Source: Candidatus Heimdallarchaeota archaeon
Lineage (GTDB): Archaea; Asgardarchaeota; Heimdallarchaeia; JABLTI01
Direction of reading: 5' to 3'
NCBI GenBank assembly: GCA_030614005.1
Contig: JAUWKS010000020.1
Location: 1 to 32,000, forward strand
Length of the DNA stretch: 32,000 nucleotides
The notes under the pieces were generated by a model that searched no databases, was not told the origin of the DNA, and saw only the letters and a list, made by a program, of their open reading frames with translations. Made by a program: the position numbers and the translations under genes. This document shows positions 13,134-13,591 of this stretch, piece after piece (within the stretch, counting starts at the first letter, position 1; each line of letters starts with the position of its first letter).

Positions 13134-13376
13134 TGTTGCAACAACTTCTCTAAATAAAGTTACGTTACTTTGGGATACTCTTATTATATAAATGATTTTG
13201 CGATTTGAATTAAATAATTACTTCTGATACTAAGTGAAAAAGTAGTTTTTTTTTCACGAATATTTGAAGAGAAAAAATAATTCAATTTATCAACAAAAGA
13301 GAAATGCTTAAAACTGAATAGATTAAGAAAAAACCATAACCAATAGGCAACAATGTCGAGGTAGCTTAGCTTGGTT

Positions 13377-13407
13377 ACGGATGTCCACGCGTGCACGTTC
13401 GCCAGAA
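13377..13407 (+). other. tRNA intron 1, D-loop (20a/21; boundary could be +1, i.e. 21/22), 31 nt
   Basis: BHB: central helix TTGG/CCAG, bulges TTA and AAT, inner 7-bp helix CGGATGT/ACGTTCG. The outer helix is only 1 bp (relaxed motif). Confidence 0.8.
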
Positions 13408-13424
13408 TGGGCGCCTGACTCATA

Positions 13425-13465
13425 ATCCAAATCGATTAACTCACAGTGGCCAGATTTGATGGGAC
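13425..13465 (+). other. tRNA intron 2, canonical position 37/38, 41 nt
   Basis: Strict BHB: central helix C32-T33-C34-A35 with TGGG (13460-13463), bulges TAA and ACA, inner helix TCCAAATC/GATTTGA. Confidence 0.92.
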
Positions 13466-13487
13466 ATCAGGAGGTCGCGGGATCGAA

Positions 13488-13517
13488 AATCCATTAATAT
13501 TCTTAATGGCTCGGTAT
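13488..13517 (+). other. tRNA intron 3, T-loop position 59/60, 30 nt
   Basis: BHB: central helix ATCG/CGGT, bulges AAA and ATG, inner hairpin CCATTAA/TTAATGG. Removal restores a 7-nt T-loop ATCGAAG. Confidence 0.88.
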
Positions 13518-13591
13518 GCCCGCCCTCGACACCAATTTTTTAAAATAAAATCATTAAAATGAAATTCTTTTTTGAACCTTAAATGAAATGT

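What the first reader, a model, noticed from the sequence alone, without database searches (positions are those of the whole stretch)
13355..13534. tRNA-Met gene interrupted by three introns
More than half of the gene (102 of 180 nt) is intron. The introns sit in the D-loop, at 37/38 and at 59/60, each with a BHB that I could pair by hand. Triple-intron tRNAs are rare and best known from Thermoproteales. The gene is absent from the ORF track and standard tRNA scans could miss it. BHB geometry puts the D-loop intron at 13377-13407 (U at 21), whereas a 1-nt shift would give the usual A21.
Basis: seen in the sequence. Interest (0 to 1): 0.7.

Follow-up and report, generated by a model that had tools for sequence, protein, structure and literature searches.

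The report
Three-intron methionine tRNA gene, Asgard archaeon
This is a real, conserved tRNA gene (anticodon CAU, most likely the elongator methionine tRNA) of a Heimdall-group Asgard archaeon, cut into four pieces by three enzyme-spliced introns; heavily interrupted tRNA genes have already been described in Asgard archaea, so it is a good new example, not a new kind of thing.

Summary
Removing 13377-13407 (31 nt, D-loop), 13425-13465 (41 nt, 37/38) and 13488-13517 (30 nt, 59/60) from window 13355-13534 (+) leaves a 78-nt cloverleaf with anticodon CAU, A73 and an encoded CCA. ARAGORN and the Rfam tRNA model both miss the unspliced gene.

The gene is conserved in 9 related genomes, with compensatory changes in cloverleaf stems and intron helices and a conserved promoter-like block upstream. 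Introns 1 and 2 are in every family member. Intron 3 is only in this genome and its closest relative, so it is a recent gain, and the intron-less orthologs fix its borders to the base.

Introns 2 and 3 have strict bulge-helix-bulge motifs. Intron 1 has a relaxed one. [quoted passage not shown]

Identity is elongator Met at about 0.78. The genome also has an intron-less initiator and a separate Ile2-like CAU gene, plus TiaS.

Multi-intron tRNAs in Asgard archaea are already published (2024; preprint 2026), so this is a new member of a known kind. Earlier notes of this scan flagged similar multi-intron and A54 CAU tRNAs on other DNA. No RNA data could be obtained, so splicing is inferred.

The parts
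13286..13314 (+). Promoter-like block: purine-rich BRE-like stretch plus TATA-like CTTAAAA at 13307-13313, 41 nt upstream of the mature 5' end
   Evidence: Nearly identical in 7 family members while the next ~40 nt diverge. Similar AAAnnTTTAAAA motifs lie at a similar distance upstream of other tRNA genes of this genome. Promoter function is inferred.
13355..13376 (+). Exon 1: acceptor 5' strand, U8 A9, D-stem 5' strand GCUU, D-loop AGCUUGGUU (positions 1-20a)
13377..13407 (+). Intron 1, 31 nt, D-loop (20a/21). Relaxed BHB: central helix UUGG/CCAG, 5' bulge UU|A, inner helix CGGAUGU/ACGUUCG, 3' cut AA|U in a small internal loop
   Evidence: Same fold in G000, G005, G009 and G011. The central helix is paired in 7/7 genomes with pair types UG/CG/UA. 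One double compensatory change (G-C to A-U) in the inner helix. The D-loop is uninterrupted in the orthologs of G080 and G016.
13408..13424 (+). Exon 2: U21, D-stem 3' strand GGGC, G26, anticodon stem 5' strand CCUGA, loop CUCAUA (positions 21-37)
13425..13465 (+). Intron 2, 41 nt, canonical 37/38. Strict hBHBh': central helix CUCA/UGGG, bulges UA|A and AC|A, 7-bp inner helix. The intron starts with AUC like exon 3, so a shift of up to +3 nt gives the same product
   Evidence: The MFE fold recovers it. Present in all orthologs, including families f2, f7 and f14.
13466..13487 (+). Exon 3: A38, anticodon stem 3' strand UCAGG, variable loop AGGUC, T-stem 5' strand GCGGG, T-loop A54 U55 C56 G57 A58 A59
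13488..13517 (+). Intron 3, 30 nt, T-loop 59/60. Strict hBHBh': central helix AUCG/CGGU, bulges AA|A and AU|G, inner helix CCAUUAA/UUAAUGG. A recent gain
   Evidence: Local fold -16.1 kcal/mol, z = -2.5. Present only in G000 and G010. Five orthologs (G005, G006, G007, G009, G011) read AUCRAAG with no insertion, which fixes the borders uniquely. No other copy in 12 family genomes or in this genome.
13518..13534 (+). Exon 4: G60, T-stem 3' strand CCCGC, acceptor 3' strand CCUCGAC, A73, encoded CCA
13536..13541 (+). T6 run directly after the gene, a likely transcription stop
   Evidence: T-rich tracts follow nearly all tRNA genes of this genome. Function inferred.

Best explanation
Window 13355-13534 (+) is the functional gene for the elongator methionine tRNA (anticodon CAU) of a Heimdall-group Asgard archaeon.

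Inferred pathway:
- The gene is transcribed from its own BRE/TATA-like promoter as a precursor of roughly 200 nt.
- The ends are trimmed. CCA is already encoded.
- The heterotetrameric (alpha-beta)2 splicing endonuclease cuts at the three bulge-helix-bulge motifs: D-loop 20a/21, anticodon loop 37/38 and T-loop 59/60.
- RtcB joins the four exons into a 78-nt tRNA.

Shown here: the sequence anatomy, its conservation and covariation, the presence of the enzymes, and the three-way split of the genome's CAU tRNAs. Inferred: transcription, cleavage at exactly these phosphates, ligation, and charging with Met.

History of the introns: the canonical intron is old, being shared with other Heimdall families and a more distant Asgard family. 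The D-loop intron is shared by the whole family. The T-loop intron was gained recently, in the common ancestor of this genome and its closest relative.
For: - Spliced product: ARAGORN calls it a full-length tRNA(CAU). An independent BHB enumeration gives the same solution. Shuffle control: 1 of 200.
- Conservation: orthologs in 9 of 11 family genomes.
- Covariation on the 7-genome alignment: 97.2% of cells paired, against at most 50.6% when partners are slid. Six pairs change on both sides (0 of 500 shuffles reach this): acceptor 5:68, anticodon stem 27:43 and 29:41, T-stem 50:64, and one pair each in the central and inner helix of intron 1.
- Orthologs that carry only the canonical intron score above the Rfam tRNA cut-off: G080 52.4 bits, G016 56.3 bits.
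- Intron 3 borders are fixed by the intron-less orthologs.
- Promoter-like block conserved upstream.
- Machinery: EndA alpha at C82 has the Tyr/His/Lys triad. Its best solved relatives are crenarchaeal alpha subunits (E 1e-36), and the loop Lys aligns with A. pernix K44. EndA beta at C9 has lost the catalytic His. RtcB is present at E 8e-174. Asgard (alpha-beta)2 EndA with the L1 loop is published (PMC5829648).
- Identity, no initiator marks: the gene has G1-C72 and anticodon stem CCUGA/UCAGG. The true initiator (A1-U72, GGG/CCC) is the intron-less gene at C36:36274-36352.
- Identity, a separate Ile2 candidate: a third CAU gene at C19:1-123 (-) has the stem-loop GG-CUCAUAA-CC, as does tRNA-Ile(GAU) (GG-CUGAUAA-CC). 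Its G016 counterpart is the reciprocal best match of tRNA-Ile(GAU), whereas the counterpart of this gene is not.
- CAU tRNAs with an Ile-type acceptor plus GGCUCAUAACC are widespread. TiaS is encoded.
Against: - No RNA evidence: no spliced product, splice junction or expression could be examined.
- Met versus Ile2 rests on similarity and elimination, not on isotype-specific models or chemistry.
- The unusual A54 T-loop (AUCGAAG) also occurs in tRNA-Ile(GAU) of other Asgard lineages, which could be read as an Ile trait.
- The 3' cut site of intron 1 is not in a canonical 3-nt bulge, and an alternative register exists (29-nt intron, 80-nt product).
- The full-length MFE fold does not recover the intron-1 motif. 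The local fold of the G000 D-arm is no better than shuffles (z = 0.0).
- The genome is about 90% complete and many isoacceptors are still unfound, so another Met gene cannot be strictly excluded.
Confidence: 0.72

Rival explanations
1. The gene is the AUA-reading tRNA-Ile2(CAU), with C34 converted to agmatidine by TiaS, and the C19 gene is the elongator Met.
For: TiaS is encoded, so one CAU tRNA must be Ile2. The A54 T-loop AUCGAAG of this gene is identical to that of tRNA-Ile(GAU) in G080, G104, G142, G194 and G210, and in G080 the D-arm is identical too. An earlier scan note on another archaeal genome read an A54 CAU tRNA as Ile2 (unchecked).
Against: The anticodon stem-loop (A31-U39, GA-CUCAUAA-UC) differs from tRNA-Ile(GAU) in every genome examined. 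The other CAU class shares G30-C40 and G31-C39 with it. Similarity to Ile(GAU) is 61-66% for this class against 70-77% for the other, which is the reciprocal best match of Ile(GAU) in G016. A54 is not Ile-specific: tRNA-His and tRNA-Thr of G194 have it, and that genome's ortholog of this class has U54.
Confidence: 0.18
2. The locus is a decaying or silent tRNA pseudogene whose insertions are not removed.
For: No expression data. ARAGORN and the Rfam tRNA model reject it. Position 54 is A, position 21 is U, and the D-stem has two G-U pairs. A degenerate partial copy of the gene exists in G006.
Against: Exons are near-invariant across 9 genomes and change only by compensatory pairs. The intron helices are also maintained. 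The promoter-like block is conserved. It is the only elongator-Met candidate in the genome. A54 is fixed in orthologs of three families.
Confidence: 0.04
3. The gene is as described, but intron 1 is cut in another register: 13378-13408 (giving A21) or 13378-13406 (29 nt, giving an 80-nt tRNA with a 12-nt D-loop).
For: The central helix can slip by one pair (UUGGU/GCCAG is 5 bp). The 29-nt solution also passes ARAGORN. The intron-less ortholog in G080 has A21. The 3' cut site is not in a canonical bulge.
Against: Register A gives 7 rather than 6 inner-helix pairs and one outer pair. Position 13377 varies A/T among relatives while T13408 is invariant. G005, G006 and G007 have U21 under either register, so U21 is tolerated in this family.
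Confidence: 0.15

Closest known systems
Multi-intron tRNA genes of Asgard archaea (Valentin-Alvarado et al. 2024, PMC11291895; Goswami et al. 2026 preprint, 10.64898/2026.10.13.758758)
   Same: BHB-type introns at canonical and non-canonical positions, D-arm and T-arm included. Several introns per gene (up to five reported). D-arm insertions missed by standard annotators. Repeated recent gains with no identifiable donor.
   Different: [quoted passage not shown] This gene is in a Heimdall-group genome. Its third intron can be dated between sister species, with base-exact borders.
Triple-intron tRNA genes of Thermoproteales/Crenarchaeota (Sugahara et al. 2007, 2008, as cited in PMC4090602)
   Same: Three BHB introns in one gene, relaxed motifs at non-canonical sites, and dependence on an (alpha-beta)2 EndA with the crenarchaeal-type loop.
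   Different: A different phylum. In Thermoproteales related introns recur in different tRNA genes (intron transposition); here none of the three introns has a paralogue.
Elongator tRNA-Met with three introns in an algal genome (PMC4090602)
   Same: The same isoacceptor, interrupted three times.
   Different: A eukaryotic system with very short non-canonical introns of unknown splicing mechanism. No evidence of common descent.
Eukaryotic initiator tRNA-Met T-loop (A54, A60; PMC3950347, PMC7912444)
   Same: A54 instead of the near-universal U54. The orthologs in family f2 read AUCGAAA, the same seven letters as I recall for the eukaryotic initiator T-loop.
   Different: This tRNA has G1-C72, lacks the three G-C pairs of the anticodon stem, and has G60 here. 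The genome's own initiator has U54 and U60. A54 also occurs in Ile, His and Thr tRNAs of other Asgard genomes.

Membership tests
Archaeal tRNA gene with BHB (enzyme-spliced) introns | Removing the insertions restores a canonical cloverleaf | tested here: met
   78-nt full-length tRNA by ARAGORN. Independent enumeration agrees. Shuffle control 1/200.
Archaeal tRNA gene with BHB (enzyme-spliced) introns | Two 3-nt bulges separated by a 4-bp helix at each exon-intron pair | tested here: met
   Strict for introns 2 and 3. Intron 1 meets only the relaxed form: 5' bulge, 4-bp helix and 7-bp inner helix, with the 3' site in an internal loop. Relaxed forms are accepted substrates of (alpha-beta)2 enzymes (PMC4090602, PMC5829648).
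Archaeal tRNA gene with BHB (enzyme-spliced) introns | Genome encodes a splicing endonuclease able to cut non-canonical or relaxed sites, and a ligase | tested here: met
   A catalytic alpha with the crenarchaeal-type loop Lys, plus a His-less beta. RtcB present.
Archaeal tRNA gene with BHB (enzyme-spliced) introns | Spliced RNA observed | not testable with these tools
   No RNA run was listed for this DNA.
Elongator tRNA-Met | Anticodon CAU, A73, and no initiator marks (A1-U72, G29-31:C39-41) | tested here: met
   (the initiator is a different gene).
Elongator tRNA-Met | Distinct from the tRNA-Ile2(CAU) of the same genome | tested here: inconclusive
   A separate Ile2-like CAU gene exists, and similarity favours that assignment. 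No isotype-specific model or modification data were available.
tRNA-Ile2(CAU) | Body and anticodon stem-loop resemble tRNA-Ile(GAU) of the same organism | tested here: not met
   61-66% identity and A31-U39 instead of G31-C39.
Eukaryote-type initiator tRNA | A1-U72, three G-C pairs in the anticodon stem, A54 and A60 | tested here: not met
   Only A54 is present (G60 here; A60 in family f2).
Rfam tRNA (RF00005) | Score at or above 29 bits | tested here: not met
   The unspliced gene gives no hit even at E<=10. Single-intron orthologs score 52-56 bits. The spliced sequence could not be submitted to this tool.

The most novel reading that the evidence does not exclude
The elongator tRNA-Met lineage of Heimdall-group archaea carries, as a fixed trait, the T-loop that reviews reserve for eukaryotic initiator tRNA: A54 throughout families f1, f2 and f7, and the full AUCGAAA with A60 in f2. 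The initiator-type A1-U72 and GGG/CCC marks sit on a different tRNA with an ordinary U54 loop. If the eukaryotic initiator T-loop descends from this Asgard tRNA-Met lineage, for example through recombination or recruitment of a Met gene, this gene family would mark a step in the origin of eukaryotic initiation. The evidence does not exclude this. It is weakened because A54 also appears in Ile, His and Thr tRNAs of other Asgard genomes, and because the ortholog in family f14 has U54.
Probability: 0.06. Interest if true: 0.7.

Novelty: new member of a known kind. Interest (0 to 1): 0.35.

Why it matters
Practically, this is probably the genome's only elongator tRNA-Met gene, and neither of the two tRNA scans I could run (ARAGORN and the Rfam tRNA model) sees it. 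An annotation based on such scans would therefore appear to lack an essential tRNA. The same approach recovered two-intron tRNA-Lys, tRNA-Cys and Ile2-like genes in this genome.

For evolution, the locus gives a clean before-and-after pair for intron gain. Sister species differ by one 30-nt T-loop intron. Its borders are fixed to the base by intron-less orthologs, it already sits in a perfect BHB, and no donor copy was found in this genome or in 11 relatives. That bears on the open question of how archaeal tRNA introns arrive.

It also shows that at least one Heimdall-group family, a group reported as intron-poor, holds genes as fragmented as those of Thermoproteales.

Tried and rejected
- RNA evidence: the look-up of sequencing runs listed no RNA holder for window 11000-16000. 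This says nothing about expression.
- Rfam: no family at the gathering threshold. At E<=10 the only hit is a chance-level sR23 C/D-box match on the minus strand (9.7 bits against a 45-bit cut-off). Rejected.
- Donor search for the introns: blastn-short of the three introns against the genome gave only matches of 16 nt or less in unrelated places. A degenerate 26-nt pattern of intron 3, with 3 mismatches allowed, hit only this gene in G000 and G010 among 12 family genomes. Other non-canonical introns of the genome are of similar length (about 29-32 nt) but are not similar in sequence.
- First search for further CAU tRNAs: an anticodon-arm regex plus acceptor closure found only the two C36 genes amid noise. 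The third gene turned up only by similarity to the G016 Ile2-like tRNA.
- A hit resembling a second tRNA-Ile near tRNA-Ile(GAU), at C46:28326-28352, is only a 3' fragment and not Ile2.
- A54 as a class marker for Met or for Ile: rejected. It occurs in Ile(GAU), His and Thr elsewhere and is missing from the f14 ortholog.
- Intron 2 as a C/D-box guide: it is too short and has no consistent C/D boxes across orthologs. Not pursued.
- Papers not held: Marck & Grosjean 2002 and 2003, and Suzuki & Numata 2014. The preprint's supplements are not held. Statements about TiaS determinants, A. pernix K44 and the near-universal canonical intron of archaeal elongator tRNA-Met therefore rest on my memory and are marked so.
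- The sigma-70 promoter scan was not run, because it does not apply to archaea.

Full report
WHAT IS THERE. Window 13355-13534 (+) begins GUCGAGG and ends CCUCGAC-A-CCA. Removing 13377-13407 (31 nt), 13425-13465 (41 nt) and 13488-13517 (30 nt) leaves 78 nt. ARAGORN draws this as a complete cloverleaf with anticodon CAU. ARAGORN finds no tRNA in the whole window, even with intron search on the region. The Rfam tRNA model gives nothing at the gathering threshold or at E<=10.

MORE THAN CHANCE. I listed all acceptor-stem closures followed by NCCA in G+C-rich islands of the genome. I then enumerated every BHB-like segment inside each (4-bp helix, 3-nt bulges, at least 2 bp of a flanking helix), spliced all combinations of up to three, and kept those that ARAGORN calls a full-length tRNA. 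The same procedure, with the acceptor ends kept and the interior dinucleotide-shuffled, succeeded in 1 of 200 shuffles.

THE ORGANISM AND ITS tRNA SET. The window is contig C36 of a 3.6-Mb, 33.5% G+C, 126-contig assembly that is 90% complete. Earlier notes of this scan call it a Heimdall-group Asgard archaeon. The nearest protein-atlas clusters of its EndA come from Nitrososphaerota and Promethearchaeota, which is consistent. Most tRNA genes found carry at least one intron, and CCA is encoded. My scan also recovered two-intron tRNA-Lys(UUU) and tRNA-Cys genes and D-loop introns in tRNA-Gly(UCC) and tRNA-His. At least a dozen isoacceptors remain unfound.

CONSERVATION. The gene is present in 9 of 11 genomes of the same family. 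On the alignment of seven full-length orthologs, the precursor structure I wrote down (cloverleaf plus BHB helices) has 97.2% of cells paired, against 31-51% when partners are slid by 1 to 3 columns. Six pairs change on both sides, which none of 500 shuffles reaches. Four of these are in the cloverleaf: acceptor 5:68, anticodon stem 27:43 and 29:41, and T-stem 50:64. Two are in intron 1: one in the central helix (C-G versus U-A) and one in the inner helix (G-C versus A-U). A block TTTATCRAAAAAGAGAAATGCTTAAAAY lies about 41-69 nt upstream of the mature 5' end and is nearly invariant in all seven genomes, while the spacer after it diverges. Other tRNA genes of this genome have similar AAAnnTTTAAAA motifs at a similar distance, and T-rich tails. 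I read this as the BRE/TATA promoter and an oligo-T stop. That is inference.

THE THREE INTRONS.
- Intron 2 (37/38) is a textbook hBHBh'. The anticodon stem continues into CUCA/UGGG, the bulges are UA|A and AC|A, and there is a 7-bp inner helix. The unconstrained fold of the whole gene finds it.
- Intron 3 (59/60) is equally clean. The T-stem continues into AUCG/CGGU, the bulges are AA|A and AU|G, and the inner helix is CCAUUAA/UUAAUGG (local fold z = -2.5).
- Intron 3 exists only in this genome and in G010, the closest relative (93% identity over the gene). Five other orthologs read GGGAUCRAAGCCC with nothing inserted. Only one placement of a 30-nt insertion reproduces AUCGAAG, so a motif-free comparison gives exactly the BHB-predicted borders.
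- Intron 1 (D-loop) folds the same way in four genomes tested. The D-stem is followed by a small internal loop, then the 4-bp helix YUGG/CYRG, the 3-nt bulge UU|N, and a 7-bp inner helix. Its 3' cut therefore lies in an internal loop and not in a 3-nt bulge, which makes it a relaxed motif.
Position 13377 varies A/T while T13408 never varies. This favours the BHB register (13377-13407, U21).
- Orthologs in two other Heimdall families (G080 in f7, G016 in f2) have an uninterrupted D-loop and only the canonical intron. A more distant Asgard genome (G194, f14) has a D-arm insertion plus the canonical intron.
- So the canonical intron is old, the D-loop intron is at least family-wide, and the T-loop intron is recent.
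- None of the three introns has a similar copy elsewhere in the genome. Intron 3 has none in 12 family genomes.

MACHINERY. The genome has two single-unit EndA genes.
- The C82 protein keeps the Tyr/His/Lys triad and is most similar to the catalytic alpha subunits of Sulfolobus tokodaii, Aeropyrum pernix and Pyrobaculum aerophilum (E 1e-36 to 5e-29).
- The alignment is gap-free through the loop RKPQG, opposite A. pernix EKPRG. From memory, that Lys (K44) is the crenarchaea-specific-loop residue needed for broad specificity.
- The C9 protein has lost the catalytic His (TPS where M. jannaschii has EHS) and is the structural beta subunit.
- This is the (alpha-beta)2 architecture reported for Asgard archaea, with the L1 loop (PMC5829648), and it is the type that cuts relaxed and non-canonical sites (PMC4090602).
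- RtcB is present.

MET OR ILE2? The genome holds three CAU genes.
- C36:36274-36352 is the initiator (A1-U72, GGG/CCC, intron-less).
- C19:1-123 (-), cut by the contig end, has acceptor GGGGCAU, two introns and the stem-loop ACUGG-CUCAUAA-CCAGU.
- The third is the window gene, with CCUGA-CUCAUAA-UCAGG.
- The complete genome G016 has the same three classes.
- In both genomes the GGGGCAU class shares G30-C40 and G31-C39 with tRNA-Ile(GAU) and is more similar to it overall (70-77% against 61-66%). In G016 it is the reciprocal best match of tRNA-Ile(GAU), whereas the nearest neighbours of the window-gene class are Thr and Arg tRNAs.
- CAU tRNAs that combine an Ile-type acceptor with GGCUCAUAACC are common in archaea and bacteria.
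- TiaS is encoded.
- I therefore assign the window gene to elongator Met at about 0.78. tRNAscan-SE isotype models and modification data would settle it.

AN ODDITY: A54. After splicing the T-loop reads AUCGAAG. Every other tRNA I recovered from this genome has U54. A54 is fixed in the orthologs of families f1, f7 and f2, and f2 reads AUCGAAA. Reviews describe A54 as peculiar to eukaryotic initiator tRNA (PMC7912444; PMC3950347). However, A54 also occurs in tRNA-Ile(GAU) of five other Asgard genomes and in tRNA-His and tRNA-Thr of G194, whose ortholog of this gene has U54. Earlier scan notes flag A54 CAU tRNAs in other genomes. It is thus a recurrent Asgard (perhaps archaeal) deviation, not a mark of this gene. 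A54 also forms the first pair of the intron-3 central helix.

WHAT IS KNOWN, AND THE VERDICT. Triple-intron tRNAs were first described in Thermoproteales. Asgard genomes in which most tRNA genes carry several introns were reported in 2024 (PMC11291895). A 2026 preprint counts up to five intervening sequences per gene, notes that D-arm ones are missed by annotators, infers many recent gains and finds no donor route. It lists Heimdallarchaeia among the intron-poor lineages. This locus fits that picture and adds a well-resolved case in a Heimdall-group family. It is a new member of a known kind, with moderate-to-low interest (0.35). Splicing itself remains inferred, because no RNA run could be listed.

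Noticed in passing
window 13482-13487 plus 13518 (T-loop after splicing); L049, L069-L080, L013, L090-L094, L136, L142: Position 54 is A (AUCGAAG), not the near-universal U. A54 is fixed in orthologs of three Heimdall families, and family f2 reads AUCGAAA, the eukaryotic-initiator T-loop as I recall it. A54 also occurs in tRNA-Ile(GAU) of five other Asgard genomes and in tRNA-His and tRNA-Thr of G194.
   Followed up: partly
window 13446-13453 (GUGGCCAG) inside intron 2; the same motif in L003, L006, L007, L013, L067-L071, L080, L143: The canonical intron of this tRNA keeps an octamer AGGGCYAG (UGGGUCAG in family f14) across four Asgard families, while the rest of the intron diverges in sequence and length. 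In f2 and f7 it is not part of the BHB helices. Its function is unknown; it may be a binding or guide-target site.
   Followed up: partly
G000 contig C19:1-123 (-), outside the window: A third CAU tRNA gene, Ile2-like (acceptor GGGGCAU, loop GG-CUCAUAA-CC), with a D-stem intron and a canonical intron. It lacks its last ~11 nt because the contig ends.
   Followed up: partly
G000 C7:5326-5465 (+), C4:62280-62414 (-), C16:14793-14901 (+), C64:3331-3436 (-): tRNA-Lys(UUU) and tRNA-Cys(GCA) each have two ~31-nt introns (D-loop or 37/38, plus 53/54). tRNA-Gly(UCC) and tRNA-His have D-loop introns. ARAGORN missed or mis-called these. At least a dozen isoacceptors are still unfound in this assembly.
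   Followed up: partly
G000 C46:28326-28352 (-): A 27-nt copy of the 3' end of tRNA-Ile(GAU) (T-arm to CCA, 89% identical) lies 1.3 kb from the intact gene on the same strand. It looks like the duplicated attachment site of an integrated element.
   Followed up: no
L021 (G006:C77:58690-58744): G006 has a degenerate partial copy of this tRNA gene 1.8 kb downstream of the intact one. It starts inside intron 2 and runs to CCA, and its T-loop is mutated to AUAAAAG. Probably a pseudogene or an integration scar.
   Followed up: no
window 13184-13423 (-): A 79-aa ORF overlaps the promoter region and the first third of the tRNA gene. It is almost certainly not a gene.
   Followed up: no
G000 C36:36274-36352 (+), 4 kb beyond the window end: The intron-less initiator tRNA (A1-U72, GGG/CCC, T-loop UUCGAAU) lies on the same contig, 23 kb downstream of this gene.
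   Followed up: yes
G000 C71:90626-90718 (+): ARAGORN calls a 93-nt 'tRNA-Pyl (CUA)'. Not examined; it could be a mis-called intron-containing or class II tRNA.
   Followed up: no
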